64,000 nt of DNA from Candidatus Saccharimonadales bacterium (GCA_036276755.1 DASUOG010000010.1:155-64154); one strand, 5' to 3'; shown: positions 29,755 to 55,302, counted from the first letter of the stretch. Notes: a model not told the origin generated them from the sequence alone. Made by a program: numbers and translations.

Positions 29755-29774
29755 AAACAAAGAAAGGGAGCAAA

Positions 29775-29834: not shown

Positions 29835-29850
29835 ATAGGCGAACCCTTCA

Positions 29851-29879
29851 GGCGGACTCCGCTAAAAGCGGACTCCGCC
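29851..29879 (+). other. 12-bp stem hairpin within the dcw transcript
   Basis: GGCGGACTCCGC-TAAAA-GCGGACTCCGCC with one C-C mismatch. The arms are simultaneously direct repeats. Confidence 0.5.
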
Positions 29880-29937
29880 GGGGAGGGAAAACCGGCAGTC
29901 AGAGACTGCTGAAAACAAAAATAAAAAGGAGAAACAA

Positions 29938-30282
29938 ATGACATATTCTAGCTCAATAAGTATGGGCAGAAGACGTTTTGCCAGACGGCATCAGAATGCC
30001 GTGAGCATGGCAGAGCAGGCAAGAACAATAGGGCCGATCAGCAACAGCATAGTACTCGTCTTGCTTAGTTGCTTGTTAGGCATCTTGTATCTGACCCAGG
30101 TTACTAAAACCAATGCGACCGGTTATAAGATCAACCAGCTGAAAGAAGAGTATTCACAACTTCAGAAGGATCATGCCGAACTGGAACTTTCAGCGGCACG
30201 ACTGCAGTCCATGGACCGGGTAGCGGGCAGTCCGGTTACCAAGAACCTGGTTTCGGTAGCGCCTACGACGACAGTCCAATAA
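29938..30282 (+). CDS. ftsL: cell division protein FtsL-like
   Basis: 114 aa. A basic N-terminus, a single TM helix and a coiled-coil segment. Canonical position between rsmH and ftsI. Confidence 0.6.
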   Translation: MTYSSSISMGRRRFARRHQNAVSMAEQARTIGPISNSIVLVLLSCLLGILYLTQVTKTNATGYKINQLKEEYSQLQKDHAELELSAARLQSMDRVAGSPVTKNLVSVAPTTTVQ

Positions 30283-30300
30283 ACGTAAGAGGTAAGACAA

Positions 30301-32037
30301 TTGTTGCCGCTTAAGACAAACCAGGTCAGGCTTACGCCTAGCAACCTACGGTTCGATGTTTTCTACGGGTTGCTGGTTTTAATTTTGGTCATATTCATCG
30401 TTCGTTTGTTTTATTTACAGGTTATACAACATAATCATTATAGGCAGGCGGCATTGCACGGACAGTTAAAGGAGTACAGCATTCCTGCTCAACGAGGCTC
30501 GATAAAGGCTCATGACGGTAACAATATCGTGCCTATTGTGCTCAACGAGGAAGTCTTTACTCTTTTTGCCGACCCGATCTACGTAAAAGATAAGAAAGCT
30601 GCCGCGGAAAAGCTGAGCAAGCTTACCGGTGACGACGAGGTTGAATATCTGAAGAAGATGCAGCGTGATACCCGATATGCCATACTTGCTAAAAAACTGG
30701 ATGAGAACAAAAAGAAAGCCATCGAGGCGCTTGATCTCAAAGGTATCGGCCTGCGACCGGAAGCTATGCGGGTGTATCCCCAGGGTAGTTTGGCGGCTCA
30801 ATTGCTGGGGTTTGTCAATGATGCGGGTTATGGGGTGTACGGCATAGAAGAGTTCATGGACAATTCCTTGCGTGGTAGGGACGGCCAGCTAAAGGCCATC
30901 ACCGATATAAGAGGTGTGCCCTTGGTAGCTAATGAGGATAATGTACTTAAGGATCCAATCCCCGGTAAGGATATATTGCTTAGTATAGACATCGGTATGC
31001 AAAGCAAGGTAGAGAAGCTTTTGGCAAAGCATCTGCCTGAAGTACGGGCAGAGAGCGGTAGCGTGACAGTGCTTGATCCGAATAACGGGGAGATCAAAGC
31101 GATGGCTAATTTTCCCAGTTATGACCCGAGAAAGTATACCGAAGTCAAAGAGCAGGCGCTGTTCACCAATCCGGCAGTAAGTTCGCCGCTCGAGGTAGGC
31201 TCTATAATGAAGACCCTCACTGTAGCGGCGGGTCTGGATACCGGGGTGATCAAGCCGGATACTACATTCTTTGATAAGGCGCAGTTCACGGTCGACGGGT
31301 ATACCATACGCAACGTCGAGGAAGACGGCGGACCGCAAACCCGGAGCATAGCCGACATACTGCAGTATTCATTAAATACCGGCGCGACATATATTCTCCA
31401 GCAAATGGGCGGCGGCGAAGTCAATAAGAAAGCCCGGGATACTTGGCATGATTACCTGGTCAATCATTATTACTTCGGCCAGAAGACCGGAGTAGAGCAG
31501 GGCTATGAAGCACCGGGTGTGGTACCCGGACCGACGGACGGTTTCGCGCCCAGTCTAAAATATGCCAACATGGCTTTCGGCCAAGGCTTCACGGTTACTC
31601 CGCTGCAGATGGCCGCCGCATTCGCTTCGACGATTAACGGCGGGACGTATTATCAGCCGCATTTGGTGGATGGTGGTAAGAACTCCGAATGGATAAAAAA
31701 TAAAAATGTGATCAAGCCGCAGGTTTCTAAAACACTTAGAACCATGCATGAGAATAGCGCACAAAAGCGCTACCCGTTCATCCTGCACGATGGTTATCGG
31801 ATCGGAGGCAAAACAGGGACGGCACAGGTTCCCGGACCCGACGGTACCTATTTGGAAGATGTTTTCAACGGTACGTTCATCGGATATGTAGGAGGTAACA
31901 AGCCGGCTTACGTAATAATGGTCAGGGTCGATAAACCGCGCATTTACGGCTATGCCGGATCGGTTGCCGCGGCACCGTTGTTTGCGAAGGTGTCTAATAT
32001 GCTGATAGATAATTTCTCGATTCCAAGGGCTGAATAA
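30301..32037 (+). CDS. ftsI: penicillin-binding protein 2 / FtsI-type transpeptidase
   Basis: 578 aa. TM anchor, dimerisation domain, and SxxK (SIMK), SxN (SLN) and KTG (KTGTA) motifs. Confidence 0.9.
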   Translation: MLPLKTNQVRLTPSNLRFDVFYGLLVLILVIFIVRLFYLQVIQHNHYRQAALHGQLKEYSIPAQRGSIKAHDGNNIVPIVLNEEVFTLFADPIYVKDKKAAAEKLSKLTGDDEVEYLKKMQRDTRYAILAKKLDENKKKAIEALDLKGIGLRPEAMRVYPQGSLAAQLLGFVNDAGYGVYGIEEFMDNSLRGRDGQLKAITDIRGVPLVANEDNVLKDPIPGKDILLSIDIGMQSKVEKLLAKHLPEVRAESGSVTVLDPNNGEIKAMANFPSYDPRKYTEVKEQALFTNPAVSSPLEVGSIMKTLTVAAGLDTGVIKPDTTFFDKAQFTVDGYTIRNVEEDGGPQTRSIADILQYSLNTGATYILQQMGGGEVNKKARDTWHDYLVNHYYFGQKTGVEQGYEAPGVVPGPTDGFAPSLKYANMAFGQGFTVTPLQMAAAFASTINGGTYYQPHLVDGGKNSEWIKNKNVIKPQVSKTLRTMHENSAQKRYPFILHDGYRIGGKTGTAQVPGPDGTYLEDVFNGTFIGYVGGNKPAYVIMVRVDKPRIYGYAGSVAAAPLFAKVSNMLIDNFSIPRAE

Positions 32038-32106
32038 AGGTATAATAAGTATGGATGCTAAAGATAATGACCGAAATAAAAACTCTGCAAAAAGAAAGGT
32101 CGCAAC

Positions 32107-33150
32107 ATGAATGATGCATTCCTGATAGCTTTGGAAAGCGATAGGCTGGTGCAGCTGTTATTCATGGCTTTTTCCGGTTTTGCCTTAAGCATGCTGTTGA
32201 CTCCTATATATACGACCTTCGCTTACCGGCAAAAGTGGTGGAAGAAACCCAGGACTGATGCGACGACAGGGGAGAAGGCCAAGATATTCACCCAGCTGCA
32301 TGCTTTGAAGCACCGGCGCAACATACCAACCATGGCCGGCTTGATATTCGTAATCTCGGTGGCTGTGGTGACTTTGTCGCTTAATTTTTCCCGGGAACAG
32401 ACCTGGCTGCCTCTGGCGGCGTTTTTAGGTGCGGGTTTCGTGGGATTGATCGATGACGTGATAAACCTGCGCGGTTCGGGCAATGGCACCGGGGGATTAT
32501 CCGCAAAGCTGAAGCTGGGGCTTATAACCTTGGTGGCGTTGATAGGCGGATTGTTTTTCTACTATAAGCTGGATTACAACTCGATCCAGGTGCCCGGTAT
32601 CGGCGATCTGGGAATCGGTTTGCTCATAATACCGTTGTTTGTGCTGGTAGTTCTAAGTACCGCGAATGCTGTCAACATAAGCGACGGGCTTGACGGTTTG
32701 GCCGGCGGATTGGCGTCATCGGCGTTCGGAGTATATGCGATAATCGCGTTTACCCAAGGTCGGTTCGGAATCGCCGGTTTTTGCCTGACGATAGTCGGAG
32801 CCTTGCTGAGTTATACCTGGTTCAATATTTATCCGGCCAGATTCTTTATGGGAGACGTCGGTTCGTTCGCGCTGGGTACGGCGCTCGGAGTGGTAGCGAT
32901 GATTACTGACACGGTGCTGCTTCTGCCGATAATCGGCGCGGTATTCGTAGTAGAGGCCGGTTCTTCGCTGATACAGATACTTTCCAAAAAATTTCGTGGC
33001 AGGAAGGTTTTCAAGGTAGCGCCGATTCACCATCATTTCGAGGCTTCCGGATGGCCGGAAACCAAAGTCACCATGCGGTTTTGGATAATGGGGCAAGTGT
33101 CGGCATTCGTGGGACTGATTATTTACATAATAGGAAATTACCATGTTTAA
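32107..33150 (+). CDS. mraY: phospho-N-acetylmuramoyl-pentapeptide transferase
   Basis: 347 aa. ..NAVNISDGLDGLAGG.., FMGDVGSFALG and APIHHHFE. Confidence 0.93.
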   Translation: MNDAFLIALESDRLVQLLFMAFSGFALSMLLTPIYTTFAYRQKWWKKPRTDATTGEKAKIFTQLHALKHRRNIPTMAGLIFVISVAVVTLSLNFSREQTWLPLAAFLGAGFVGLIDDVINLRGSGNGTGGLSAKLKLGLITLVALIGGLFFYYKLDYNSIQVPGIGDLGIGLLIIPLFVLVVLSTANAVNISDGLDGLAGGLASSAFGVYAIIAFTQGRFGIAGFCLTIVGALLSYTWFNIYPARFFMGDVGSFALGTALGVVAMITDTVLLLPIIGAVFVVEAGSSLIQILSKKFRGRKVFKVAPIHHHFEASGWPETKVTMRFWIMGQVSAFVGLIIYIIGNYHV

Positions 33151-34438
33151 ACGCAGTCGCCGCTCACGCAACCCAAGGATAAACCAGCGCAGCGCTTACC
33201 TGGCGGACGGAAATAACTCCGATCAAAATGCGTTCAGACGCCACCGGCCGGATTATTGGTTGATTATTATCGCTTTCTTGCTGTTGACCATCGGCATAGT
33301 CGTGGTTTATTCCATCAGTCCTGCCTTGGCTGCTGCCCAAGGTATAAGTGAACACTACTATGTGACCAAACAACTTATTGCACTTTTGATGGGAATGGCG
33401 GCTTTTGCCTTGTTAAGCGCACTTCCTTTATCGGCGGTTAAGAGGATTACGAAAACCTTGGTATGGCTGTCATTTATAATGATCGCTGCCGTACAGCTGT
33501 TCGGACAAGAGGCCAACGGAGCTTATCGCTGGATACAGGTAGCCGGCTTCTCGTTCCAGGTAGCCGAACTGGTAAAACTCACACTTGTGATTTGGTTGGC
33601 CGGATTTTTAGTGCAACGTATCTCTAACCAGGAGATTCAATCGACGAACAAGACCCTGAGACCGCTTGTCATAGTCATCGGATTGATCGGCCTGCTCATA
33701 GCCGGGTTGGAAAGTGATTTAGGCTCAGCGGGCGTGATGATAGCAATAGTGGCCGTCATGGGCTTTTCGGCCGGATTGCCCCTTAAAAAGATCGGTATAA
33801 TCGTCGGTATTATCCTGCTTTTAACAACGCTTGCTATCAGCAGTACGCCGTACAGACGGGATAGGCTGGCTTCGTTCCTGAATCCTGCCAGGGATTGCCA
33901 GGACGAAGGATACCAATCATGTCAGGCATTGATTGCCATAGGAAGCGGGGGAGTTTTCGGTCTGGGTTTGGCGAACGGTGTGCAGGCATACGGATATCTA
34001 CCGGAAGCAGAAAATGATTCCATATTTGCTATTCTGGGCGAAAAATTCGGCTTTTTCGGAACCAGTGCAATCATCGGACTTTACGCCGTATTGTTCGCGC
34101 GTATGCGCCGGATAATCCTGCGCACGTCGGATTATTTTTCGCGATTGGTAGTTATAGGTGTCTTAGCTTGGCTTAGCATACAGACTATAATAAATATTGG
34201 CGCGATGATCGGTCTTTTGCCGCTGAAAGGCATCACATTACCGTTTATCAGTTACGGCGGTACCAGTCTGGTCTTTGTCATGGCGGCCGTCGGCCTGGTC
34301 TTCCAAATATCGCGTTACACCAGCTATTCAACGGTCAGGAGCGCTTCGATAAAAGAAAAAGAAGGAGATACTATTGAAGATTCTTTTAGTCGGCGGCGGC
34401 AGCGGAGGCCATATTACGCCTCTTCTGGCAGTCGCTAA
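33143..34438 (+). CDS. ftsW: FtsW/RodA/SpoVE family peptidoglycan glycosyltransferase
   Basis: 431-aa polytopic protein. ..GAYRWIQVAGFSFQVAELVK.., ESDLGSAG, PEAENDSIFA and PLKGITLPFISYGGTS. Confidence 0.9.
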   Translation: MFKRSRRSRNPRINQRSAYLADGNNSDQNAFRRHRPDYWLIIIAFLLLTIGIVVVYSISPALAAAQGISEHYYVTKQLIALLMGMAAFALLSALPLSAVKRITKTLVWLSFIMIAAVQLFGQEANGAYRWIQVAGFSFQVAELVKLTLVIWLAGFLVQRISNQEIQSTNKTLRPLVIVIGLIGLLIAGLESDLGSAGVMIAIVAVMGFSAGLPLKKIGIIVGIILLLTTLAISSTPYRRDRLASFLNPARDCQDEGYQSCQALIAIGSGGVFGLGLANGVQAYGYLPEAENDSIFAILGEKFGFFGTSAIIGLYAVLFARMRRIILRTSDYFSRLVVIGVLAWLSIQTIINIGAMIGLLPLKGITLPFISYGGTSLVFVMAAVGLVFQISRYTSYSTVRSASIKEKEGDTIEDSFSRRRQRRPYYASSGSR

Positions 34439-35549
34439 TCAGTTAAAAAACAGCCATCCTAAATGCAAAGTCTCGATCATCACCGAACGTATGGGCATTT
34501 TTGAACATATCCTCAAGGAGTCCGATACAAGCTCGATCGACTCCATTCATTATATAAATGCCGGCAAATACAGAAGATACTACGGAGAAACATTGCTAAA
34601 AAAGGTGATCGATGTAAAAACCATCCTGTTTAATTTTCGGGATGCCTTCAAACTTCTTGTCGGAGTGGTAGAAAGTTTCTGGTTGCTGATTAGAATAAGA
34701 CCCAACGTAGTATTCATAAAAGGCGGTTATGTAGGAGTTCCGGTAGGCCTGGCTTGCCGTTTGCTCAGAATCCCATATGTCACCCATGACTCTGATGCAT
34801 TGCCCGGTCTGACCAACCGCCTGATCTCTAAAAAGGCCAAGGCGAATGCGGTCGGTATGCCAGTGGAGCACTATCCGTATCCTCCACATAAGACCGTATA
34901 TGTCGGCATACCCATAACTGATGATTTCCTACTCACGAGCGAAGAAACCAGGCGCAAGAAACGCCGGGAACTCGGTCTGAAATCTTCGGATTTTTTGATT
35001 TTAATTACCGGCGGAAGCAACGGTGCTTTGCGCTTGGATAAAATAGTCCATGATTCGCTTAAAACGCTACTTGAAAAAAACAAACAGCTTCATATCATCC
35101 ATCAGGTCGGCAAGGATAACAAGGATGTTTACTCCGATTATCCGGCGCATTTGCATTCAAGGATCCGCGTATCCGGGTTTTTCAAACCGCTGAGCGAATA
35201 TATCGCAGCATCCGACGCCGTGATAGCCCGTGCCGGAGCAACATCTATAACCGAAGTAGGGATGCAAAAGAAACCGCTAATAATAGTGCCTAATCCCTAC
35301 CTGAGCGGGGGACACCAGATAAAAAATTCTAAAATATATGAAGAAAAACAGGCGGTATTGGTAATAAACGAGCATAAGGCATTAGAAGATCCAAAACTTT
35401 TGCCAGCGGCAGTTACCAACGTCATTAATTCGCCTGATTTGGCGGCAAAACTCAGTAAGAATCTTTATGCCCTTATCCGAAAGGACGCTTCAAAAAAAAT
35501 AGCCCGGTTATTGATTGATATCGCTCGTAAGAAAGGCTTTGCAGATTGA
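34374..35549 (+). CDS. murG: UDP-N-acetylglucosamine--N-acetylmuramyl-(pentapeptide) pyrophosphoryl-undecaprenol GlcNAc transferase
   Basis: 391 aa. GGGSGGHITPLLAV and ..ARAGATSITE.. TTG start overlaps the ftsW 3' end; the true start may be slightly different. Confidence 0.88.
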   Translation: MKILLVGGGSGGHITPLLAVANQLKNSHPKCKVSIITERMGIFEHILKESDTSSIDSIHYINAGKYRRYYGETLLKKVIDVKTILFNFRDAFKLLVGVVESFWLLIRIRPNVVFIKGGYVGVPVGLACRLLRIPYVTHDSDALPGLTNRLISKKAKANAVGMPVEHYPYPPHKTVYVGIPITDDFLLTSEETRRKKRRELGLKSSDFLILITGGSNGALRLDKIVHDSLKTLLEKNKQLHIIHQVGKDNKDVYSDYPAHLHSRIRVSGFFKPLSEYIAASDAVIARAGATSITEVGMQKKPLIIVPNPYLSGGHQIKNSKIYEEKQAVLVINEHKALEDPKLLPAAVTNVINSPDLAAKLSKNLYALIRKDASKKIARLLIDIARKKGFAD

Positions 35550-36445
35550 AGAGACCGTTTAAGAATAGTAAACAAACCCGCAGAGTAAGGCTCGATAAAT
35601 CCAAGCCCAGACTATTTTTTTACGGGTCTGGACGCGGCAGCTCGCAGAAACCTGAACGCAGCCCAAACGCTTCTGAGCAGGACTATGCGATTTTGCAATC
35701 CAAATTTTCTAATATCATAAACTTCACAATAGCCGCAATCATCCTGATCGGCATAATATATATGTCGATTTTGCAGCCTGACGCGCAGGTCAAGCTAGAG
35801 GGCGAAAAGGTTTATCCCCGGGCCAAATCCAGCTATGAGGAAGGGATAAACCGCCAACTTAAGAGCTCTGTCTTTTATAGAAACAAGCTGACCTTTGATG
35901 CTGAGAGTTTGAGGAAAAAAATAGAAGCCGCGTTCCCTGAAGTCAATGAGACGAATATAGCCATATCTTTATTCCGGCACCGCCCGGTGGTTGAGATCAG
36001 GCTGGCCAAACCTACGACTAAACTAATTACTGAGGACAGGGTCTACATATTAGATGAAGAGGGGAGAGCTCTTTTCGAGCAAAAAGACGCATCCAAACAG
36101 CTGGATACGGAGTCTTTGTTAACTATTCGTGACAGCTCGGGGCAATCCATTGAATTAGGTAAGCCGGCGCTTGCGGAAAGCCAGATAGGTTATATCAGAG
36201 AAATCATCGGCCAAATGAAGGCCTATAAAAAGCTAAAACCACGTTTTTTTCTGCTTTCAAACGGAGGGACAGGTCTTAATGTGAGGTTTGACGGTCTGAG
36301 CTACTATGCAAGGTTCAGTTTTTATGCGGACCCGCGGCAGAGCAGCGGGGCCTTCATAGCCTTGTATGAACAGTTCAACCGCGAAGGGACTGCGCCTAGC
36401 GAATATGTGGACTTACGGATTCCCGAAAAGGCCTTTGTCAAGTAA
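35546..36445 (+). CDS. ftsQ: cell division protein FtsQ/DivIB-like
   Basis: 299 aa. Basic N-terminus, single TM helix and an extracytoplasmic POTRA-like region. Position after murG. Confidence 0.55.
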   Translation: MKRPFKNSKQTRRVRLDKSKPRLFFYGSGRGSSQKPERSPNASEQDYAILQSKFSNIINFTIAAIILIGIIYMSILQPDAQVKLEGEKVYPRAKSSYEEGINRQLKSSVFYRNKLTFDAESLRKKIEAAFPEVNETNIAISLFRHRPVVEIRLAKPTTKLITEDRVYILDEEGRALFEQKDASKQLDTESLLTIRDSSGQSIELGKPALAESQIGYIREIIGQMKAYKKLKPRFFLLSNGGTGLNVRFDGLSYYARFSFYADPRQSSGAFIALYEQFNREGTAPSEYVDLRIPEKAFVK

Positions 36446-37049
36446 TACTCCTCTGCTCTTCCAATGTTCGCTTTTTGTTCAACAATAGAATTTTAGTAAT
36501 TCTTTGGAAAAGTATATTTTAAATATAGAAACACCAAAATGTCAAAAAATCAAAAAATAGAGCAAGGCAGGGGACAAAAATAAAAAAAACTTATAAAACG
36601 TGAAAAAGCGTGAAAATGCAAACATGTTTGTGGAAAAGTCTAGAATATGGTATGGAATTATTTTGAGACACTAGCGGTTTCGAGAGGGCTTTGTCGTTAG
36701 AATGCAGGTTATATAAACAAGCAGACACATGAGAGGTGCAGCAGTGCCTTAAAACGATGTTTAGTCCATTAGGACATCATTACTCCCCTAGCATAAGAGG
36801 TATCCAGAACCCATCCGTACAGGATATATGCAGGTCGCAAAATATACATTGTGCGACGTTATATCTATCTATGGATCTGACTCTCAGATACTGCTGCTCT
36901 GCTTATATTTTTATCGTCTTGTATATTTTAGGTTCTAAAAATCACTCGACCCTGCTCTTTCAAGTCCGTACTTGCCGGCAACGTTGACATCCGGTTCTAT
37001 TTAGCCAAACTCATAAAATATATTGTTCGTATTTTGTTCAATAAAAACT

Positions 37050-48199: not shown

Positions 48200-49516
48200 T
48201 TATAACGAAATTTTGCTAAGATCGTCCGGGTTATTCTTATTGTCGGTTGAGTTGCCTTGGTCTTCGCCCTGGTTGGCCGCGGCTCCGGTGCCGTTTTCTT
48301 TTGCCTGTTCTTGTGCCAACAAAGCATCGAGGTCCGGCCCTTTGGTCGGGTCATTTATTGGCTTGATTATCTTCTTGCCGGGTGTGCCATCAGAGCTATT
48401 TATCGATGATGGGGCCACCTCCTCGGAATTTTCTGCTGGCTTTTCTTCGGTTACCGTAGTTGCTTGTGGTTTTACTACGGTAGATGGCTGTGAAATGCTT
48501 GAAGCGGATGTTTCAGGAGGCTTATCTTCTTTATCTGCTTCTTTGGTTTGGTCTTGGAGGGACTTTTCTTCTTCGGCAAGGGCTTCGGCTACAGTAGGCC
48601 CGATATCAGGTGTTTCAGCGGAAGTATCGGTAGATTGGGCGTTGTCGCCCGGCTTGGTGGATTCGTCAATATTTTTTGCACCCTGTGCTTCGTCGCCGTC
48701 AGGAAGTGTAACCTCGATTTTCCTAGCCGGTGGCTTAGGCGGCGGTTGGGCGGCATCATCAGGTTGGGCTACCGACGCCTGTGGTGTCGCGGGCTGAGCG
48801 GATACTGTCGGAGGATTTTGGCCGGCATCGGGCGGTGGTGTCACCGCCGAGGGTTGCTGCGGTGCGGTAGCTGGTTGGTTTTGATCGGATGTCGGTGGCG
48901 TGGCTGGTGGTGATGGAGCTGGAACGGGCGCCGGGTCGTTTGCAGCCGCTGGCGGAGCCGGTGAAGGCGCGGACGTCAGAGGCGCTTGTGTTCCTGATGG
49001 CTGTGCAACAGGCGGAGTTTGTTCGGCCGGTTTCTGTTCTACGACCGGTTGTGGTGGCGTCGGGGTGGCTGATTCCGGCGGCGGTGCGTCGGCAGGAGCT
49101 TGATTGCTTTGTGGCTGGTCCTGGGGGCTGGCTGGTGGCGACGTTGGACCGTCGTTAAGCATCTTATGTACCGCCTCTGCTACGTCCTCTAGGGTAACCT
49201 GACTCTTTACCAGATAAAGGTCAGCGCCAAGCTTGTCGGCGCGTTCCTTATCCTCGGCTTGCGACAAGGCCGTCATCATAATTATCTTCGTATCTTTTGT
49301 TTCAGGAGCGTTACGCAGAATATCCAGCATGTCGAAGCCGCTGATTTTCGGCATCATTATATCCGAGATGATCAGGTCGGGTTTTTCTTTTACGGCTATT
49401 GCCAAAGCTTCTTCGCCGTCGGGAGCCGCTACAATCTCATAACCTTCAGCGGTCAACCTGGCGCCGTAAATCTCTCTTAGATTATTGTCGTCTTCAACGA
49501 GTAAGATTTTGGCCAT
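48200..49516 (-). CDS. response regulator with ~300-aa Pro/Ala/Gln/Thr-rich low-complexity C-terminal region
   Basis: Canonical REC domain (ILLVEDDNNL, DLIISDIMMPKISG, K in YLVKS). The remainder has no recognisable output domain. Confidence 0.8.
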   Translation of the reverse strand: MAKILLVEDDNNLREIYGARLTAEGYEIVAAPDGEEALAIAVKEKPDLIISDIMMPKISGFDMLDILRNAPETKDTKIIMMTALSQAEDKERADKLGADLYLVKSQVTLEDVAEAVHKMLNDGPTSPPASPQDQPQSNQAPADAPPPESATPTPPQPVVEQKPAEQTPPVAQPSGTQAPLTSAPSPAPPAAANDPAPVPAPSPPATPPTSDQNQPATAPQQPSAVTPPPDAGQNPPTVSAQPATPQASVAQPDDAAQPPPKPPARKIEVTLPDGDEAQGAKNIDESTKPGDNAQSTDTSAETPDIGPTVAEALAEEEKSLQDQTKEADKEDKPPETSASSISQPSTVVKPQATTVTEEKPAENSEEVAPSSINSSDGTPGKKIIKPINDPTKGPDLDALLAQEQAKENGTGAAANQGEDQGNSTDNKNNPDDLSKISL

Positions 49517-49580: not shown

Positions 49581-51350
49581 TTATGCTTTCGTGGAAGTTC
49601 GCGCGCTGTTTTTAAGTTGCCCGGCCTTGTCCGATGATAAACGGGGAAAGTTTACATAAAAGGTACTGCCTTCTCCCATCTTGCTTTCCGCCCAAATATT
49701 ACCGTTATATAGCTCGACTATCTTCTTGCAAATGAACAAGCCCAAGCCGGTACCGCCGATCGACCTGGTCGCCGAATTGTCCACTCGGTAGAACTTTTGG
49801 AACAAATGAGGCAGATCTTCGTCCGGTATACCGGGGCCGGTGTCGGTTATTTTGATCTGTACTACCTGATCGTTGCCGGTCAGGCCAATTGTAATACGGC
49901 CTTCAGAAGTGTATTTGACCGCATTGTCAAAGACATTGGTGATGACTTCCCTGACCCTGTCCGGGTCTACTAAACAGAAGTACAACGGCTGGATGCTCTT
50001 TAGGCTGCTGCTGGCATCGATGACGCCGGATTCGCTGTCCTGCATGTTGATTACCAGTTCCATCTTGAGACCTTTTTTCTCCGCGCTGAATTTCAGGTCT
50101 TCGCTCAGCTGGGTTATGAATTGACCCACCTCGACGACTTCGGGGTGGCTGGCCAGTCTTCCGTCCTCGGCCTTGGCGCTGGTTAATAAATCCTGGAAGA
50201 GCTTGCCCAAATGCTGGGTGCTCAGGTGTGCTTTAGTCAGATACTCGCGGGCTTTACTGTCTATCTTGCTGACTCGCTCGTTAAGGGCAAGCGCCAGATA
50301 GCCTTCGATGGCGGCTACGGGCGTGCGCATCTCATGGCTGGCGGTGCTGATGAACTCGGCACGTTGTTGCTCTTCTTGTTTTTCTTTACTGACATCGCGG
50401 AACACGGCCACCGCTCCGGAAAGTTTATTGGCTTTGTCTACTATGACCGGAGAGATAGCCAGCGATATGTACATATTATTGTTCTGTCGGTCTATCATAA
50501 GCATGGTTTTACTGAAATGATTGTGTCGTTTCAGCACTTGGCTGAAAGGATGCTCATCGCCCTTTAGCAATTCTTTTGATTTAGGGTCTTTTATGAGTCG
50601 CAGTACAGCTGTGGCGTCGAATCCGAAAGCCTCGTTTTCCGGCCAGGCAGTCAGCTTGGCCGCCGCTGCGTTAATAAGGGTTATCCTGCCGGCGGTATCG
50701 ACCGCGATTATACCGTCGGTAATCGATTGGACCAGGATTTCAAGCTGCTGTTCGTGGCTTTTGATCTGTACGGAAAGCTTTTTGACCCGCTCGGAAGACT
50801 CTGAGATGAACCGGTTGCGCCAGAAAAAATAGCTGAACAGAGCCACCACCATCGCGCCTAAAATTAAAAATAGGCCCACCGGTTTCAGATTCGAAAAATC
50901 GAACTCTATCTCCAGTAGTATGTAAATGAAGCTGACCAGCATGGCTCCCAGCGATATGACAAATCCGTGCATACTCACGATCCAGCCCGTGAGAAACCAG
51001 GTTATTACAAAGACCAATGCGGCCGGCGATTGATTAGTTTCATTGAAGACGTTCATAAACGGCAGGACCATCATCAGCGATCCTACAAATGAAGCCAGCG
51101 CCAAACTGGCCTTTGCTACTACCCAGTAAAAAGTCAGCAGATAGACTAATATACCTACGGACATATATAAGACTGCGTCATTCAACCCATATGTTGTTTC
51201 CAGGTTCAGCTCAGGAAATTTTCTGGAAACTATATATAAAGCTAAAAATGCCAGATTCAGGATTACCCAAACTATCCAATGGAAGCGGTACCATCCCTTC
51301 GAGACATGCTGCATTAGTTCGTCAAGCATTACTAGAAGATTATACTGCAA
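49581..51350 (-). CDS. sensor histidine kinase (multi-TM, PAS, HisKA, HATPase)
   Basis: H-box FISTASHEMRTPVAAIEGYL, N-box NVFDNAVKYT, DTGPGIP and GGTGLGLFICK. The N-terminal half has about 6 TM helices. Confidence 0.85.
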   Translation of the reverse strand: MQYNLLVMLDELMQHVSKGWYRFHWIVWVILNLAFLALYIVSRKFPELNLETTYGLNDAVLYMSVGILVYLLTFYWVVAKASLALASFVGSLMMVLPFMNVFNETNQSPAALVFVITWFLTGWIVSMHGFVISLGAMLVSFIYILLEIEFDFSNLKPVGLFLILGAMVVALFSYFFWRNRFISESSERVKKLSVQIKSHEQQLEILVQSITDGIIAVDTAGRITLINAAAAKLTAWPENEAFGFDATAVLRLIKDPKSKELLKGDEHPFSQVLKRHNHFSKTMLMIDRQNNNMYISLAISPVIVDKANKLSGAVAVFRDVSKEKQEEQQRAEFISTASHEMRTPVAAIEGYLALALNERVSKIDSKAREYLTKAHLSTQHLGKLFQDLLTSAKAEDGRLASHPEVVEVGQFITQLSEDLKFSAEKKGLKMELVINMQDSESGVIDASSSLKSIQPLYFCLVDPDRVREVITNVFDNAVKYTSEGRITIGLTGNDQVVQIKITDTGPGIPDEDLPHLFQKFYRVDNSATRSIGGTGLGLFICKKIVELYNGNIWAESKMGEGSTFYVNFPRLSSDKAGQLKNSARTSTKA

Positions 51351-51474
51351 TGCTTATGCTTGGGCCAATCTGTTATACTAATATTTTACGGTGGATATCG
51401 CGTGATAGTATGTACTGCTTAGGCATAATAACGCTTCGCTCGTGTCTACAAAAAGCCAAGACATTGGCTTTTCG

Positions 51475-51549
51475 GGTCCCATCGTCTAGCGGTTAGGACA
51501 TCAGGTTCTCATCCTGAAAACAGGGGTTCGATTCCCCTTGGGATCACCA
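51475..51549 (+). tRNA. tRNA-Glu (anticodon CUC), CCA encoded
   Basis: Manual cloverleaf. Acceptor GGTCCCA/TGGGATC (one G-U pair). D arm GTCT-AGCGGTTA-GGAC. Anticodon arm TCAGG-TTCTCAT-CCTGA. T arm AGGGG-TTCGATT-CCCCT. Discriminator A plus CCA. Confidence 0.9.
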
Positions 51550-51658
51550 CAAAAAATGCTCGCATAAAGGCGGGCTGTTTTTGTGTTAATACTTCAGTGG
51601 AATCGAACGGGAAGTCCTGTGGACTTCCCAGGCACTTTTGGAGATTCATCGAGAAAAG

Positions 51659-51679
51659 CGATTCCCCTTGGGATCACCA
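51659..51679 (+). repeat. 21-nt perfect direct repeat of the tRNA-Glu 3' end
   Basis: CGATTCCCCTTGGGATCACCA at 51529-51549 (inside the tRNA) and again at 51659-51679. Confidence 0.85.
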
Positions 51680-51685
51680 GAATTT

Positions 51686-52216
51686 TTATATCGGATCACT
51701 CTTGAATTTCGTCAGGTAGCCTATGTAACTAGTCAGCAGATGCATGAGGAACCAAACGATAGCCATCAGAACATACTGCCCTGCCTCAAGCACAACAGCC
51801 AAGGAGCTAAACAACAGCCCGCCGGCTATATAGTCCAGCTGGTCGAACGGAAACCAGCTTTTGCCGGAAACAACATTCACCTGTCTTTTGAAAAAGCTTT
51901 TTACCATATCGCCGAACAGCGCGCCGAAACTCAAAAGAACTCCCAGCCAAATCGTCAGCTGGGCATAATCCAGACCGCCGGCAACTCCGCCTATTTGTGT
52001 CTGCAGGAAGAAAAACCAAGTACCGGCCAGTGTGCCAAATACCAGGCCGCGGATGGTTTTGTGAGGCCCTAATATCGGCTTGCCGCGAAACTTACGGCCG
52101 AAATCTACCGGCGCCTGCCATTCGGACAGCACCGGTAACTTTGCGATTATCACCGGTGTGACATTAGCTATGCCCGCGGGTAGGAAAAACCAAAGCGCAA
52201 AGAATAGATCATCCAT
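51686..52216 (-). CDS. CDP-archaeol synthase (CarS/DUF46)-like CTP:lipid cytidylyltransferase
   Basis: 176 aa. ..FFLPAGIANVTPV.., ..PVDFGRKFRGKPILGPHKTIRGLVFG.., ..FGALFGDMVKSFFKRQ.. and ..FPFDQLDY.. match the blocks I recall from archaeal CarS. Confidence 0.7.
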   Translation of the reverse strand: MDDLFFALWFFLPAGIANVTPVIIAKLPVLSEWQAPVDFGRKFRGKPILGPHKTIRGLVFGTLAGTWFFFLQTQIGGVAGGLDYAQLTIWLGVLLSFGALFGDMVKSFFKRQVNVVSGKSWFPFDQLDYIAGGLLFSSLAVVLEAGQYVLMAIVWFLMHLLTSYIGYLTKFKSDPI

Positions 52217-52218
52217 AT

Positions 52219-52842
52219 TTAAACCTTCTTACTGATAAATGATATGCGTTCAAATATTGATATGACAGCAAATACCGCGACCACCCCGCTGGCCAGCAAG
52301 ACCTGATCTATCAACAACCCGAAGATGATTATTGCGATACGGGTCTCAAACGGCACCAGACCCTCGTGGTATAGACGGTTCAGTTTATGGTGGTCGTCCG
52401 GCCGGTGCTTTATCGCGTAAGCGACCTCGCCTTTGGCCTTTATATAGCTGACGCTTATCGTCGCGCCGCAGGCTATCAGAGGTATAAAGGTCCAGGCATA
52501 ATAGGCTCCTTGTGAAAGATAATAGACGACTCCGCTGTAAATCAATACTTCTTTTACCCTATCGGTGGAAGCATCGATCATCATGCCCCGCGGGCTGGCG
52601 GTTTTCTTATACCTTGCCAGCTCGCCATCCAGCACGTCGAACAGGCCGAAGAATATCAACAGTACGGCAGCGAGATCCAGCTTGCCGTAACCAATAAGCA
52701 CGGCTATCGGCAGATAGGCCGCTACACCGGTCCAGGTTATAGTATCGGGCGATACGCGACCGCCACTGACCTTATCGAGCAGTTTGGCGACTACGGCAAT
52801 CTTAGTTCTTACGAATTTACGCAAGCTGGCAAGCCATGACAT
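52219..52842 (-). CDS. CDP-alcohol phosphatidyltransferase family protein
   Basis: D-G-x2-A-R-x8-G-x3-D-x3-D motif present (DVLDGELARYKKTASPRGMMIDASTDRVKE). Confidence 0.85.
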   Translation of the reverse strand: MSWLASLRKFVRTKIAVVAKLLDKVSGGRVSPDTITWTGVAAYLPIAVLIGYGKLDLAAVLLIFFGLFDVLDGELARYKKTASPRGMMIDASTDRVKEVLIYSGVVYYLSQGAYYAWTFIPLIACGATISVSYIKAKGEVAYAIKHRPDDHHKLNRLYHEGLVPFETRIAIIIFGLLIDQVLLASGVVAVFAVISIFERISFISKKV

Positions 52843-52891
52843 CGAAGTTATTGTAGCATCTGTCTATCAAAAAAATGATAATCTATTAGAC

Positions 52892-53572
52892 GTGAGATAT
52901 ACGTTACATACGTCCAAAAGGGCTGATTGGGAGATACTTGGGAAAAATCCTAAGAACATCTGGCAGGTTATTGCCGCGAAATCATATGGCGTCCTAACAC
53001 CCGGGAACATGGCCAGTTTCATCGGCGGCGCTTTGGCGCTTTATGGTTTATGGATAATCTTGAGCGGAGACACCGTAAAAGGGCTGGTGTTTTTGAGCGT
53101 CGGTCGTTTGGCAGATGTAGCCGATGGGATAATCGCGGAATATACCAGGACCAAAAGCCCTCTAGGCGAAATAGTAGATGCCGCGATGGATAAGCTTGTC
53201 GTAGCGGCGACTTTGATAGTGCTGGGTGCCTTGGAACTGATACCTTGGATAATAATAATAGTCATAGCTTTGCAGAACTCGGCTAACGTGGTGATCAGTG
53301 TCGTCGCAAAACTCAGGCATAAATACCTCCACCCTTCCCGCCTGGGCAAGGTGTCGTCGGCTTTCAGCTGGATTACGATAATTCTTTATCCGCTGGGAGA
53401 TTGGCTGCGGCAGGATGTCTCTACCGTCGGCGGCAACGCGTTAATAACACTATCGCTGATTTGTTTCGGCATCTATGCAGTCATGGGGCTAAGGGCCAGT
53501 CTCAGCTACGCGGATGCAATATATAAGAAACCGGCTAAGAAACTTATAGATTATTTGGGCAAAAAACCATAA
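52892..53572 (+). CDS. CDP-alcohol phosphatidyltransferase family protein
   Basis: Motif ADVADGIIAEYTRTKSPLGEIVDAAMDKLV. Tracked start 52784 overlaps the divergent gene. GTG 52892 follows a TGATAAT box; the start is uncertain. Confidence 0.7.
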   Translation: MRYTLHTSKRADWEILGKNPKNIWQVIAAKSYGVLTPGNMASFIGGALALYGLWIILSGDTVKGLVFLSVGRLADVADGIIAEYTRTKSPLGEIVDAAMDKLVVAATLIVLGALELIPWIIIIVIALQNSANVVISVVAKLRHKYLHPSRLGKVSSAFSWITIILYPLGDWLRQDVSTVGGNALITLSLICFGIYAVMGLRASLSYADAIYKKPAKKLIDYLGKKP

Positions 53573-53584
53573 AATAAGTAAATC

Positions 53585-54589
53585 ATGAAAAAGGGTGAGG
53601 CTGATCTAAACAGGCCGGATCCGGGCAGTCTTTTGGTCCGGTTTGATAGACTCGTGGTTATTTATAACCCGGTCAGTACCAATTCGCGCCGGAGCCGCCG
53701 CCGGATCGCCGAACTTAAAGATCTGTTTCCTTCCAAAGAAGTAGCAGTGGTGGAAACTTCGCCCGATGGCCTGGAAGCAAACAAGAAATTAATCGCCCGC
53801 GAAGCAAAAAAATTTAATAAACGCACGCTAATCTGCATAGCTGCTGGCGACGGTACGGTCAGCGCAGTCCTTGATGCCCTGTTGACCGACAAAAGCATAC
53901 CGGCCGCGGCGCGGAAGGTGCCGATTCTTCCTTTGTGGGGCGGTAACGCCAATGATCTGGCATATATGGCGAACGGTTTTTCTAATAAAAACAGCCTGAA
54001 ACATATATTCGAAAAAGGAGAAATCGTACCCGTTTATCCACTAAGCGTGAGGGTAAGCCATAAAAAGAAGATTAACAAGCGCGTAGCCGCCTGTTATGTA
54101 AGTTTCGGTGCGTCGGCTTACGCGGCCCAGCAGACGGAACTGCCAAAAAACAAAAAAAAGAAAATACATGTAATTCCCGGTACAAGGGTAGCTACGGAAT
54201 TTTGGACGGTTACCAAAGCCTTGATCAAGGCCAAGACCTTCACTATAAATGTGGACGGCGAAGAGCAATCGGTTTACGAACGTATCTTCGTGAACGGCTC
54301 GCGGATAGCCAAGATCGACCGTTTGCCGGTAAAACTCAACGAAAGGGCGTTCTATGAGGCCACGTTGGATAAGAAACATCCCAAAGCGTTGGTATCCCTG
54401 CTCTCTGCCCTGAAGATTTTGCGAAACCGTACCTACGGAGAGATCAGCGAGAAGAATTATTCCTTTGCCTTAAACAGCGAGGCGTGGTCGCAGATAGACG
54501 GCGAGGTAGTCAAATTGCCGGCGGGGACAGAAATAGAGATAAGCCTTAGTCCCGTGCCCTTTCATATAATAAGTACCAAGCTCGGATAA
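53585..54589 (+). CDS. diacylglycerol-kinase-family lipid kinase (YegS/BmrU-like)
   Basis: 334 aa. DAGK catalytic domain with ..ICIAAGDGTVSAVLDAL.. and ..PLWGGNANDLA... Confidence 0.82.
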   Translation: MKKGEADLNRPDPGSLLVRFDRLVVIYNPVSTNSRRSRRRIAELKDLFPSKEVAVVETSPDGLEANKKLIAREAKKFNKRTLICIAAGDGTVSAVLDALLTDKSIPAAARKVPILPLWGGNANDLAYMANGFSNKNSLKHIFEKGEIVPVYPLSVRVSHKKKINKRVAACYVSFGASAYAAQQTELPKNKKKKIHVIPGTRVATEFWTVTKALIKAKTFTINVDGEEQSVYERIFVNGSRIAKIDRLPVKLNERAFYEATLDKKHPKALVSLLSALKILRNRTYGEISEKNYSFALNSEAWSQIDGEVVKLPAGTEIEISLSPVPFHIISTKLG

Positions 54590-54645
54590 ATTGGTTATTG
54601 ATATAAAATTTTTGCTATACTATTGCTATACATAAGGGAGTTTAG

Positions 54646-55302
54646 GTGAAGTTTTTCATTGATACTGCTAATTTATCCGAAATAAAAAAAGCGGCAGACT
54701 ACGGGGTACTCGACGGCGTAACTACGAATCCGAGCCTGATGGCGAAAATCGGCATCAAGGGTCGCCCGAATATCAAAAAGCATTATAAAGATATCTGCGA
54801 TTTGGTTGGAAACAATGTCAGTGCCGAGGTCATCGCTGCCGATTATGATGAGATTATGAAGGAAGCGCGTGAACTTGCGGCTATCGATGACAAGATAGTG
54901 GTCAAGGTGCCGATGATCCCGGAAGGAGTAAAAGCTATCTCTACCCTGTCCAAAGAAGGCATCAGGACAAATTGTACGTTGGTATTTTCCGCCGGACAGG
55001 CCTTATTGGCCGCCAAGGCCGGTGCAAGTTATGTCAGTCCGTTCATCGGCCGGCTCGATGATGTTTCGACCGACGGGATGAGGCTGATCGAAGAGATAGT
55101 AGCCATTTATCAGAACTATGATTACCCTACCGAAGTGTTGGCTGCGAGCATCCGTCATCCGATGCATATCGTGACTTCGGCGATCGCCGGCGCGGATGTC
55201 GCTACCTGTCCGCTGAGTGTCATCGAAAAACTATTCAACCATCCGCTTACCGACACAGGCCTGGAAAAATTCTTAAGCGACTATAAGACGAGTCAGGCGT
55301 GA
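54646..55302 (+). CDS. tal: transaldolase / fructose-6-phosphate aldolase (short type 3B)
   Basis: 218 aa. MKFFIDTANLSEIKKA..GVTTNPSL and the Schiff-base Lys context VVKVP. GTG start with SD AAGGGAG. Confidence 0.9.
   Translation: MKFFIDTANLSEIKKAADYGVLDGVTTNPSLMAKIGIKGRPNIKKHYKDICDLVGNNVSAEVIAADYDEIMKEARELAAIDDKIVVKVPMIPEGVKAISTLSKEGIRTNCTLVFSAGQALLAAKAGASYVSPFIGRLDDVSTDGMRLIEEIVAIYQNYDYPTEVLAASIRHPMHIVTSAIAGADVATCPLSVIEKLFNHPLTDTGLEKFLSDYKTSQA

What the first reader, a model, noticed from the sequence alone, without database searches (positions are those of the whole stretch)
51686..54589. Lipid head-group cluster built around an archaeal-type CarS-like cytidylyltransferase
**Seen in sequence**
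Four adjacent genes:
- A 176-aa protein matching the CarS/DUF46 blocks (PVDFG..G..ILG..KT.RG; FGD..KSF.KR; DQLD).
- Two divergently arranged CDP-alcohol phosphatidyltransferases with intact D-G-x2-A-R..G-x3-D-x3-D motifs.
- A DAG-kinase-family lipid kinase.

No fatty-acid or glycerol-phosphate acyltransferase genes and no CdsA-type gene are visible in this window.

**Established knowledge**
- CarS makes CDP-archaeol in archaea.
- CDP-alcohol transferases need a CDP-activated lipid.
- CPR bacteria are reported to lack de novo lipid synthesis.

**Inference**
The cluster could form a self-contained salvage route. A scavenged diacylglycerol-type lipid would be converted to phosphatidate by the kinase, then to a CDP-lipid by the CarS-like enzyme, then to two different head groups. 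Here the CarS-like enzyme would substitute for CdsA.
Basis: partly seen in the sequence, partly recalled or inferred. Interest (0 to 1): 0.6.

Follow-up and report, generated by a model that had tools for sequence, protein, structure and literature searches.

The report
Archaeal-type CDP-lipid synthase cluster, Saccharibacteria
A lipid-dependent Saccharibacteria (CPR) bacterium carries a conserved four-gene cluster in which an enzyme of the archaeal CarS type, not the usual bacterial CdsA, probably activates borrowed lipids so that new head groups can be attached.

Summary
The four genes are real. They are a CarS-like cytidylyltransferase (PF01864, 94 bits; model matches ApCarS 5GUF, TM 0.74/0.82), a PIP-synthase-like CDP-alcohol transferase, a PgsA-like transferase and a DgkB/YegS-fold lipid kinase. 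One stated detail is wrong. The second transferase reads D-G-x2-A-E, not A-R, as do all 20 of its relatives, and it probably starts at GTG 52892.

The window is from a Candidatus Saccharimonadales MAG. The CarS-like family occurs in at least 543 species genomes, nearly all named ones Patescibacteria. It forms a clade apart from sampled archaeal CarS, with its own signature.

Function is inferred from context:
- A CDP-alcohol transferase lies within 3 kb in 72 of 82 loci.
- The commonest operon is transferase, PHP phosphatase, CarS-like.
- Fusions exist: transferase–CarS-like, phosphatase–CarS-like and transferase–kinase.

Best reading: a CarS-fold enzyme makes CDP-diacylglycerol from scavenged or recycled lipid. 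Substitution for CdsA could not be tested in this genome. In the complete T. rhizospherense genome the only cdsA-type hit is this 186-aa protein. Starr et al. (2018) already proposed that route without noting the CarS type. No substrate has been tested. I rate it a new variant of a known kind, of moderate interest.

The parts
51686..52216 (-). CarS-like integral-membrane CTP:lipid-phosphate cytidylyltransferase, 176 aa with five predicted TM helices. It begins 2 nt after the stop of the upstream transferase gene.
   Evidence: PF01864 94.1 bits; NF003114 128.4 bits against a cutoff of 148. ApCarS 5GUF E 1.7e-12. AF2 pLDDT 92.6; Foldseek 5GUF TM 0.74/0.82, rmsd 1.8 A. The invariant core shared with archaeal CarS is kept.
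52219..52842 (-). CPT_A: CDP-alcohol phosphatidyltransferase of the inositol-phosphate-acceptor type (PIP or AIP synthase-like), 207 aa. The signature motif is complete and Arg follows the fourth Asp.
   Evidence: PF01066 49.6 bits. NCBIfam best hits are AIP synthase 79 bits and PIP synthase 74 bits, both below cutoff. Nearest solved structures are mycobacterial PIP synthases 6wm5 and 6h53, E 4e-13 and 3e-11. A relative of this type lies within 3 kb of the CarS-like gene in 49 of 82 loci.
52843..52891 (.). 49-bp A+T-rich divergent intergenic region between the two transferase genes. This holds if CPT_B starts at GTG 52892. It is the presumed site of divergent promoters.
   Evidence: Sequence read; start inferred from homologue N-termini. 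The promoter scan gave nothing above the shuffled expectation.
52892..53572 (+). CPT_B: divergent PgsA-like or Cls-like CDP-alcohol transferase, 226 aa (the mechanical ORF starts at TTG 52784). The signature Arg is replaced by Glu (D-G-I-I-A-E). Head group unassigned.
   Evidence: PF01066 58.2 bits. Profile against PDB: best hit S. aureus PgsA 7drj, E 4.5e-11. NCBIfam ClsA, AIPS and PgsA all far below cutoff. E or D at the Arg position in 20 of 20 relatives. Fused to the kinase in other lineages.
53585..54589 (+). Soluble lipid kinase of the DAGK_cat (DgkB/YegS/SphK) family, 334 aa. It starts 12 nt after CPT_B on the same strand.
   Evidence: PF00781 44.3 bits. The GDGT motif is invariant. AF2 pLDDT 88.9. 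Foldseek top hits are SphK1, DgkB and YegS at TM 0.6-0.7, with NAD kinases lower. It lies beside the CarS-like gene in 19 of 82 loci.

Best explanation
The cluster is a phospholipid head-group (re)synthesis module in a Saccharibacterium that cannot make its own acyl chains.

Proposed steps:
1. The soluble DgkB/YegS-type kinase phosphorylates a diacylglycerol-type lipid to phosphatidate. The lipid is either taken from the host or released by the cell's own lipid turnover.
2. The five-helix CarS-fold enzyme transfers CMP from CTP to it, giving CDP-diacylglycerol. This is the job CdsA does in other bacteria.
3. CPT_A uses the CDP-lipid to make a phosphorylated inositol lipid (PIP, later PI). CPT_B makes a second, still unassigned head group, of the PGP or cardiolipin type.

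Shown here: gene content, family and fold membership, conserved linkage and fusions.
Inferred: the lipid substrate of each enzyme, the replacement of CdsA, and the origin of the lipid.
For: **Family and fold.** PF01864 well above PF01148. The AF2 model superposes on ApCarS 5GUF, while TmCdsA gives only E 0.23. The catalytic core shared with 120 archaeal CarS is invariant: N18, D38, K53, T54, D103, K110, R111, D125, Q126, D128.

**Context.**
- A CDP-alcohol transferase lies within 3 kb of the CarS-like gene in 72 of 82 distinct loci. The kinase does so in 19 of 82.
- Fusion proteins: PF01066+PF01864 (P0181, a complete Nomurabacteria genome; P0221); DUF212 phosphatase+PF01864 (P0239, P0261), with P0239 preceded by a transferase gene; PF01066+PF00781 in 7 of the best 120 kinase homologues.
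- Two unrelated phosphatases, PHP and DUF212, occupy the same operon role. That fits a sequence of CDP-lipid, then phospho-head-group lipid, then dephosphorylation.

**Acyl rather than isoprenoid substrate.**
- All intact polar lipids in a CPR-enriched size fraction were acylglycerols (PMC7242380).
- No UbiA or PcrB family hit in the window.
- The CPR clade has lost two Arg that are 97-100% conserved in archaeal CarS (positions 112 and 117). It has gained R56, W121, F124 and a 7-residue insertion.

**Replacement of CdsA.**
- In the complete T. rhizospherense genome the only K00981 hit is the 186-aa homologue, sitting in a PIPS-like/PHP/CarS-like operon. The table is held up to gene 1500 at least.
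- No canonical CdsA was found in the window or in 1.2 Mb of related loci.
Against: - No biochemical data exist for any bacterial member.
- The only characterised CarS enzymes prefer unsaturated archaetidate. AfCarS does not complement an E. coli cdsA mutant (PMC9385802).
- The rest of this genome was not available, so a canonical cdsA could exist elsewhere. The 1.2-Mb sample has little power: about one cdsA would be expected by chance.
- Cultivated oral Southlakia epibionticum lacks PF01864, PF01148 and PF00781 altogether, and its single PF01066 gene is non-essential. The module is therefore dispensable for some Saccharibacteria.
- No inositol-1-phosphate synthase was seen in the window or in the T. 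rhizospherense table, which leaves CPT_A's acceptor uncertain.
- CPT_B lacks the signature Arg.
Confidence: 0.6

Rival explanations
1. Accessory, not replacement. The genome has a normal CdsA elsewhere. The CarS-like enzyme is a dedicated second CDP-lipid synthase channelling substrate to particular products, for example a PI or PIM-type glycolipid anchor. E. coli YnbB beside CdsA is a comparable case.
For: Only 64 kb of the genome could be examined. The module is tightly coupled to specific transferases and is even fused to them. It is absent from reduced oral Saccharibacteria, as expected for an accessory function.
Against: The complete T. rhizospherense genome shows a single K00981 hit, the CarS-like protein. 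No CdsA was found in the window or in 82 related loci.
Confidence: 0.2
2. Genuine CDP-archaeol synthase. The enzyme activates isoprenoid ether lipids (archaetidate or DGGGP), either made by the bacterium or taken from archaeal neighbours.
For: Membership of the CarS family by Pfam and by fold. Database names say 'CDP-archaeol synthase'. The best NCBIfam hit of CPT_A is archaetidylinositol-phosphate synthase. Some Patescibacteria parasitise archaea (PMC12281837, title and abstract only).
Against: - The score is below the archaeal equivalog cutoff, 128 against 148.
- Archaea-invariant R112 and R117 are lost.
- No GGGPS or DGGGPS-type gene in the window.
- CPR-fraction lipids were all acylglycerols (PMC7242380).
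- Cultivated Saccharibacteria grow on Actinobacteria (PMC10633639).
- The partner kinase is of the DAG-kinase type.
Confidence: 0.07
3. A different lipid phosphate. The enzyme cytidylylates, or acts as a CTP-dependent kinase on, another membrane lipid such as lyso-phosphatidate or a polyprenyl phosphate. The product would feed cell-envelope polymer synthesis rather than bulk phospholipid synthesis.
For: The wider CTP-transferase superfamily includes CTP-dependent dolichol and phytol kinases (own knowledge). Lysolipids are enriched in CPR fractions (PMC7242380). CPT_B has an unusual motif. One locus has UppS next to the gene (L083).
Against: The catalytic residues shared with CarS are intact. 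The dominant partners are PIPS-like and PgsA-like transferases, whose known donors are CDP-diacylglycerol-type lipids.
Confidence: 0.1

Closest known systems
Archaeal CDP-archaeol synthase CarS (A. fulgidus AF1740; A. pernix ApCarS, PDB 5GUF)
   Same: Same Pfam family and same five-helix fold (TM 0.74/0.82, 31% identity). Same invariant Asp, Lys and Arg core. It is also followed by CDP-alcohol transferases in the pathway.
   Different: - Bacterial (Patescibacteria) host with ester-lipid membranes.
- A separate clade: 98 of 100 NJ bootstraps separate named CPR from archaeal sequences.
- It lacks archaeal R112 and R117, E56 and A121, and has a 7-residue insertion.
- It scores below the NCBIfam equivalog cutoff.
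- Substrate presumed to be phosphatidate rather than DGGGP.
Bacterial CDP-diacylglycerol synthase CdsA (E. coli; T. maritima, PDB 4Q2E/4Q2G)
   Same: Presumed same reaction (CTP + phosphatidate gives CDP-diacylglycerol) and same pathway position. Distant homology of the catalytic C-terminal domain (PF01148 30.9 bits over residues 39-115).
   Different: 176 aa and 5 TM, against about 270 aa and 9 TM with N-terminal and dimerisation domains. The motif is F-P-F-D-Q-L-D instead of the H-G-G-x-D-R-x-D signature. Foldseek E is only 0.23.
Actinobacterial PI route (own knowledge): DAG kinase Rv2252, then CdsA, then PIP synthase PgsA1, then a PIP phosphatase
   Same: Same logic and partly the same enzyme types: a DAGK_cat kinase, and a PIPS-like transferase whose nearest solved relatives are mycobacterial PIPS. 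Most relatives also encode a phosphatase in the operon.
   Different: The cytidylyltransferase is CarS-type. The genes are clustered or fused. Acyl chains are presumably not self-made. This window's lineage lacks the operon phosphatase.
Gram-positive diacylglycerol recycling (DgkB, CdsA, PgsA; own knowledge)
   Same: A soluble DgkB-fold kinase is paired with a PgsA-like transferase. This suggests return of DAG to the CDP-DAG pool.
   Different: The PgsA-like enzyme has Glu in place of the signature Arg and is sometimes fused to the kinase. CdsA is replaced by the CarS type.
Lipid-scavenging model for Saccharibacteria (T. rhizospherense; Starr et al. 2018, PMC6031116)
   Same: The same proposal: imported lipid, then a 'putative phosphatidate cytidylyltransferase', then CDP-DAG, then PGP, cardiolipin or PI. 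That gene is the 186-aa homologue of the window protein.
   Different: That study did not recognise the enzyme as CarS-type. It did not report the CPR-wide operon, the fusions or the kinase link.

Membership tests
CarS / CDP-archaeol synthase (PF01864, NF003114) | Pfam PF01864 match above the gathering score, over the full length | tested here: met
   94.1 bits against a cutoff of 22; residues 4-172 on profile positions 5-171 of 175.
CarS / CDP-archaeol synthase (PF01864, NF003114) | NCBIfam equivalog score for CDP-2,3-bis-(O-geranylgeranyl)-sn-glycerol synthase | tested here: not met
   128.4 bits, below the curated cutoff of 148.
CarS / CDP-archaeol synthase (PF01864, NF003114) | Five-TM fold of ApCarS with two cytoplasmic loops | tested here: met
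   AF2 pLDDT 92.6. Foldseek 5GUF E 1.6e-6, TM 0.74/0.82, rmsd 1.8 A.
CarS / CDP-archaeol synthase (PF01864, NF003114) | Residues invariant across archaeal CarS | tested here: inconclusive
   21 core positions are shared, including D38, K53, T54, D103, K110, R111, D125, Q126 and D128. However, archaeal R112 (100%), R117 (97%), P120, A121, P122 and L124 are replaced in the CPR clade.
CarS / CDP-archaeol synthase (PF01864, NF003114) | Substrate is DGGGP or archaetidate; co-occurs with GGGP and DGGGP synthases | tested here: not met
   No PcrB/GGGPS or UbiA family hit among the window ORFs scanned. This covers the window only. The substrate itself is not testable with these tools.
CdsA / phosphatidate cytidylyltransferase (PF01148) | Full-length PF01148 match, about 9 TM with N-terminal and dimerisation domains | tested here: not met
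   PF01148 30.9 bits (cutoff 24), but only residues 39-115 on profile positions 157-230 of 264. The protein is 176 aa with 5 helices. TmCdsA Foldseek E 0.23.
CdsA / phosphatidate cytidylyltransferase (PF01148) | CDS signature ...K-D-x-G-x3-P-G-H-G-G-x-D-R-x-D (PROSITE pattern, from memory) | tested here: not met
   The sequence reads K110-R-Q-V-N-V-V-S-G-K-S-W-F-P-F-D-Q-L-D128, which is the CarS-type D-Q-L-D.
CDP-alcohol phosphatidyltransferase (PF01066), CPT_A | D-x2-D-G-x2-A-R-x7-12-G-x3-D-x3-D, with a basic residue after D4 for phospho-alcohol acceptors | tested here: met
   D-V-L-D-G-E-L-A-R-x8-G-M-M-I-D-A-S-T-D-R. R occupies the motif position in 50 of 53 relatives. The role of the basic residue after D4 is taken from PMC6506517.
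PIP / AIP synthase equivalogs (NF045883, NF040950), CPT_A | Score above the curated equivalog cutoff | tested here: not met
   79 and 74 bits against cutoffs of 180 and 170. These are still the best-scoring subfamilies, and the nearest solved structures are PIPS.
CDP-alcohol phosphatidyltransferase (PF01066), CPT_B | Complete signature motif including A-R | tested here: not met
   The Pfam match is met (58.2 bits) and D1-D4 are present. The Arg is Glu here, and E or D in 20 of 20 relatives.
DAGK_cat lipid kinases (DgkB/YegS/SphK) | PF00781 match, GDGT nucleotide motif, two-domain lipid-kinase fold | tested here: met
   44.3 bits against a cutoff of 23.6. G88, D89, G90 and T91 are invariant. 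Foldseek gives SphK1, DgkB and YegS at E about 1e-14, TM 0.6-0.7.
DAGK_cat lipid kinases (DgkB/YegS/SphK) | Diacylglycerol as the phosphate acceptor | not testable with these tools
   All NCBIfam lipid-kinase equivalogs score far below cutoff. The fold does not separate DAG, PG and sphingoid substrates.

The most novel reading that the evidence does not exclude
CarS-fold enzymes, not CdsA, are the CDP-diacylglycerol synthases of a large part of the Patescibacteria. An enzyme treated as a hallmark of the archaeal side of the 'lipid divide' would then work routinely on bacterial ester lipids. The conserved operon (PIPS-like transferase, PHP or DUF212 phosphatase, CarS-like enzyme, often with a DgkB-like kinase) would be the machinery by which these lipid-auxotrophic epibionts re-head scavenged host lipids. 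Its PHP protein would be a candidate for the PIP phosphatase described as unidentified in PMC6506517 (2019).
Probability: 0.45. Interest if true: 0.7.

Novelty: new variant of a known kind. Interest (0 to 1): 0.5.

Why it matters
How Patescibacteria obtain and tailor membrane lipids is an open question. A 2024 perspective states that no lipid uptake or breakdown mechanism has been identified in them (PMC11665869).

This cluster supplies concrete, clonable candidates for the steps after uptake. It also allows a sharp test: does a CPR CarS-type gene rescue an E. coli cdsA defect that archaeal CarS cannot?

If it does, three things follow:
- The CarS/CdsA substrate partition that is said to uphold the lipid divide would not be a property of the fold.
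- CdsA would have been replaced across a major bacterial radiation.
- The operon's PHP or DUF212 phosphatases would become candidates for the unassigned PIP or PGP phosphatase step.

If a normal cdsA is present in these genomes, the cluster is an ordinary accessory head-group module.

Tried and rejected
- **Tiling the window with the look-up of encoding contigs for free Pfam annotation.** Only 1-5 kb Logan contigs, or nothing, were on record for window proteins. I used Pfam scans instead.
- **Genome-level cdsA test.** This was not possible. The MAG beyond this contig, and the complete genomes found (CP060223.1, CP066685.1, CP129475.1, the 896-kb JGI contig), can only be read 20 kb at a time. 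E. coli CdsA run against 4338 ORFs from the window and 1.2 Mb of related loci hit only the CarS-like ORFs, at 17-30 bits. About one cdsA would be expected there by chance, so this is weak evidence.
- **Ren et al. 2017 (ApCarS structure paper).** Not held. Catalytic residues were therefore inferred from conservation, not from the published mutagenesis.
- **Promoter and terminator scan of 51300-54800.** Nothing above the shuffled expectation for promoters.
- **Literature searches for bacterial or CPR CarS homologues**. No explicit treatment was found. Coleman 2019 does not mention CarS.
- **First bootstrap of a CPR versus Archaea split.** It gave 35%. The cause was that the tail of the 150 representatives includes archaeal sequences, for example P0226 from Altiarchaeales. 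Redone with named sequences only, the result was 98 of 100.
- **Rejected: the kinase is an NAD kinase.** NAD kinases match the model clearly worse than lipid kinases do.
- **Rejected: the cluster is a chance juxtaposition**.
Full report
**Observation**

The four ORFs exist as described.
- 51686-52216(-), 176 aa, matches PF01864 CarS-like at 94.1 bits over its whole length. PF01148 (CdsA family) reaches only 30.9 bits, on residues 39-115.
- The archaeal CarS equivalog NF003114 scores 128.4 bits, below its cutoff of 148.
- 52219-52842(-) and 52784-53572(+) are PF01066 proteins. 53585-54589(+) is a PF00781 DAGK_cat protein.

I scanned 57 window ORFs of 150 aa or more against Pfam. None hit a fatty-acid synthesis, PlsX/Y/C, CdsA, GGGPS or UbiA family. 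E. coli CdsA run with phmmer against all window ORFs of 60 aa or more found nothing.

Two details of the observation need correction.
- The second transferase reads D-V-A-D-G-I-I-A-E, not A-R. All 20 relatives of its type have E or D there, whereas 50 of 53 relatives of the first type have R.
- Its start is most likely GTG 52892 (226 aa). Homologues begin M-K/R-Y-T-L-H at that point. This leaves a 49-bp divergent intergenic region.

**Source organism and spread**

An identical protein is on record as 'MAG TPA: CDP-archaeol synthase [Candidatus Saccharimonadales bacterium]', on a 64,424-bp contig.

The family is large.
- 1,504 clusters at 50% identity match at E of 1e-3 or better.
The best 80 are almost all Patescibacteria: Saccharibacteria, Levyibacteriota, WS6/Dojkabacteria and Microgenomates.

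**Is it CarS-type?**

Yes, by sequence and by fold. The only solved relative by sequence is A. pernix CarS (5GUF, E 1.7e-12). An AlphaFold model (pLDDT 92.6) has five long helices and superposes on 5GUF with TM 0.74/0.82 and rmsd 1.8 A. T. maritima CdsA is a marginal second at E 0.23.

I compared the CPR sequences with 120 archaeal CarS from Thermoprotei, Thermococci, methanogens, Verstraetearchaeota, Marsarchaeota and MSBL1.
- The core is shared and invariant: N18, D38, K53, T54, D103, K110, R111, D125, Q126, D128 and others.
- The CPR sequences have a signature of their own. R56 replaces archaeal E. Archaeal R112 (100%) and R117 (97%) are lost. W121 replaces A and F124 replaces L. There is a seven-residue insertion at 79-85.
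- A neighbour-joining split separates 46 named CPR sequences from 46 archaeal ones in 98 of 100 bootstraps. Of 134 unnamed representatives, only P0226 joins the archaeal side, and it is from Altiarchaeales.
- The window protein is at most 39% identical to any sampled archaeal CarS.

So this is a distinct bacterial clade inside the CarS family. The tree is distance-based, and its archaeal sampling is seeded on ApCarS.

**What it works with**

I compared the four window proteins with all ORFs of 82 distinct loci that carry a CarS-like gene. The counts below are genes within 3 kb of the CarS-like gene.

| Neighbour | Loci (of 82) |
|---|---|
| Any CDP-alcohol transferase | 72 |
| PHP-family phosphatase | 52 |
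| CPT_A-type transferase | 49 |
| CPT_A-type transferase plus PHP | 40 |
| DAGK_cat kinase | 19 |
| CPT_B-type transferase | 18 |

- The commonest operon is co-directional: CPT_A-type transferase, then PHP, then CarS-like.
- The window's arrangement recurs in its closest relatives, including an 896-kb contig with the same flanks. It is CarS-like and CPT_A on one strand, with CPT_B and the kinase on the other.

Fusions reinforce the links.
- PF01066+PF01864 in a complete Nomurabacteria genome (P0181), and in P0221.
- DUF212 (PAP2-like phosphatase)+PF01864 in P0239 and P0261. P0239 is preceded by a transferase gene.
- PF01066+PF00781 in seven of the best 120 kinase homologues, and in L013.

Two unrelated phosphatases thus fill the same slot. 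This argues for a three-step module: CDP-lipid synthesis, transfer of a phosphorylated head group, then dephosphorylation.

**The partners**

- CPT_A is closest to inositol-phosphate-using transferases. NCBIfam gives AIP and PIP synthase at 79 and 74 bits, both below cutoff. The nearest structures are mycobacterial PIP synthases. It keeps the basic residue after the fourth Asp, which is required for inositol-phosphate binding in M. tuberculosis PgsA1 (PMC6506517).
- CPT_B is closest to S. aureus PgsA (profile E 4.5e-11) but is far below every equivalog cutoff. Its Arg-to-Glu change is unexplained.
- The kinase model (pLDDT 88.9) matches sphingosine kinase 1, DgkB and YegS at TM 0.6-0.7, ahead of NAD kinases. 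Its lipid substrate cannot be read from this.

**Mechanism**

The best-supported reading is a head-group (re)synthesis module in four steps.
1. The kinase makes phosphatidate from a diacylglycerol-type lipid.
2. The CarS-fold enzyme makes CDP-diacylglycerol.
3. CPT_A makes PIP, later PI.
4. CPT_B makes a second product.

An acyl rather than isoprenoid substrate is favoured on three grounds.
- CPR-enriched cell fractions contained only acylglycerol lipids (PMC7242380).
- No ether-lipid genes are present in the window.
- The substrate-loop arginines invariant in archaea are lost.

The lipid could be scavenged from the host. It could equally be recycled from the cell's own turnover, as in the Gram-positive DgkB cycle. 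The data do not separate these.

**Does it replace CdsA?**

This could not be tested for this genome. Indirect evidence points in different directions.
- In the complete T. rhizospherense genome, the only K00981 assignment is a 186-aa membrane protein next to a PHP (K07053) and a PIPS-like gene. That is the same operon. No acyltransferase is annotated. The stored table runs to at least gene 1500.
- Cultivated Southlakia epibionticum has none of PF01864, PF01148 or PF00781, and its single PF01066 gene is non-essential. The module is therefore not universal in the class.
- Characterised archaeal CarS prefers DGGGP, and AfCarS cannot rescue E. coli cdsA (PMC9385802). The proposed activity thus needs a change of specificity, and nobody has demonstrated one.

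**Known or new**

Databases already call these proteins CDP-archaeol synthase. Starr et al. 2018 already drew the route 'scavenged lipid, CDP-DAG, then PGP, CL or PI' for a Saccharibacterium, labelling the homologue a putative phosphatidate cytidylyltransferase (PMC6031116).

I found no paper that does any of the following.
- It recognises the enzyme as CarS-type in bacteria.
- It describes its spread across Patescibacteria.
- It describes the conserved operon or the fusions.
- It describes the clade signature.

**Verdict**

I rate it a new variant of a known kind, of moderate interest.

Noticed in passing
L003:8723-10555 and about 40 further loci (e.g. L008-L013, L017-L019): The commonest arrangement in Patescibacteria is a co-directional operon: PIPS-like transferase, PHP-family phosphatase (PF02811; K07053 in T. 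rhizospherense), then CarS-like gene. The window's lineage lacks the PHP gene in the cluster, and the window has no PHP homologue at all. The PHP protein is a candidate PIP or PGP phosphatase. A 2019 paper calls the mycobacterial PIP phosphatase unidentified (PMC6506517).
   Followed up: partly
window 52892-53572; relatives in L001, L005, L006, L009, L012 and others: The whole CPT_B subfamily replaces the signature Arg of D-G-x2-A-R with Glu or Asp (20 of 20). It keeps an invariant T-K-S-x-x-G-E...D-A-x2-D-K. No known CDP-alcohol transferase subfamily that I could match has this change, and its meaning for donor or acceptor is unknown.
   Followed up: partly
P0181 (L088:6001-6993), P0221, P0239 (L089:3191-4123), P0261; P0334, P0350, P0365, P0373, P0383, P0389, P0392; L013:4979-6670: Three kinds of natural fusion protein occur in other Patescibacteria: CDP-alcohol transferase+CarS-like, DUF212 phosphatase+CarS-like, and CPT_B-type transferase+DAGK_cat kinase.
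   Followed up: yes
window 9053-10120 (+): A 355-aa protein matches only the transmembrane region of lysyl-phosphatidylglycerol synthase (MprF-type; PF03706, 104 bits) and has no synthase domain. It is another lipid-related membrane protein in the window, 40 kb from the cluster.
   Followed up: no
window 48200-49516 (-): A response regulator has a normal receiver domain (residues 4-106) followed by about 330 residues of Pro/Ala/Gln/Thr-rich low-complexity sequence and no recognisable output domain. It sits next to a PAS histidine kinase (49581-51350) directly beside the lipid cluster. The same pair flanks the cluster in L001.
   Followed up: no
L003 / L007 (OY969576.1, 1,901,429 bp, 'uncultured bacterium MFD04463.bin.1.146 chromosome 1'): A single 1.9-Mb chromosome carries the transferase/PHP/CarS-like operon, with a CarS-like protein 51% identical to the window's. 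Its neighbours include G6PD, 6PGD, purA, purB and enolase. If this is a Patescibacterium it is unusually large. Its taxonomy was not resolved.
   Followed up: no
Southlakia epibionticum ML1 gene tables (PMC10633639 supplements): This cultivated oral Saccharibacterium has no PF01864, PF01148 or PF00781 gene. It has one PF01066 gene (SEML1_0297) scored non-essential. It therefore keeps a CDP-alcohol transferase with no evident enzyme to make a CDP-lipid.
   Followed up: partly
window 51475-51549 (+): tRNA-Glu(CTC), the only RNA gene found in the window, lies between the histidine kinase gene and the 3' end of the CarS-like gene.
   Followed up: no
window about 34000-37000: Cumulative GC skew rises steadily to about 34 kb and then flattens. 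Gene orientation switches from + to - between 36445 and 37050, just after the dcw cluster (RsmH, PBP, MraY, FtsW, MurG at 28876-35549). This may be a replication landmark.
   Followed up: no
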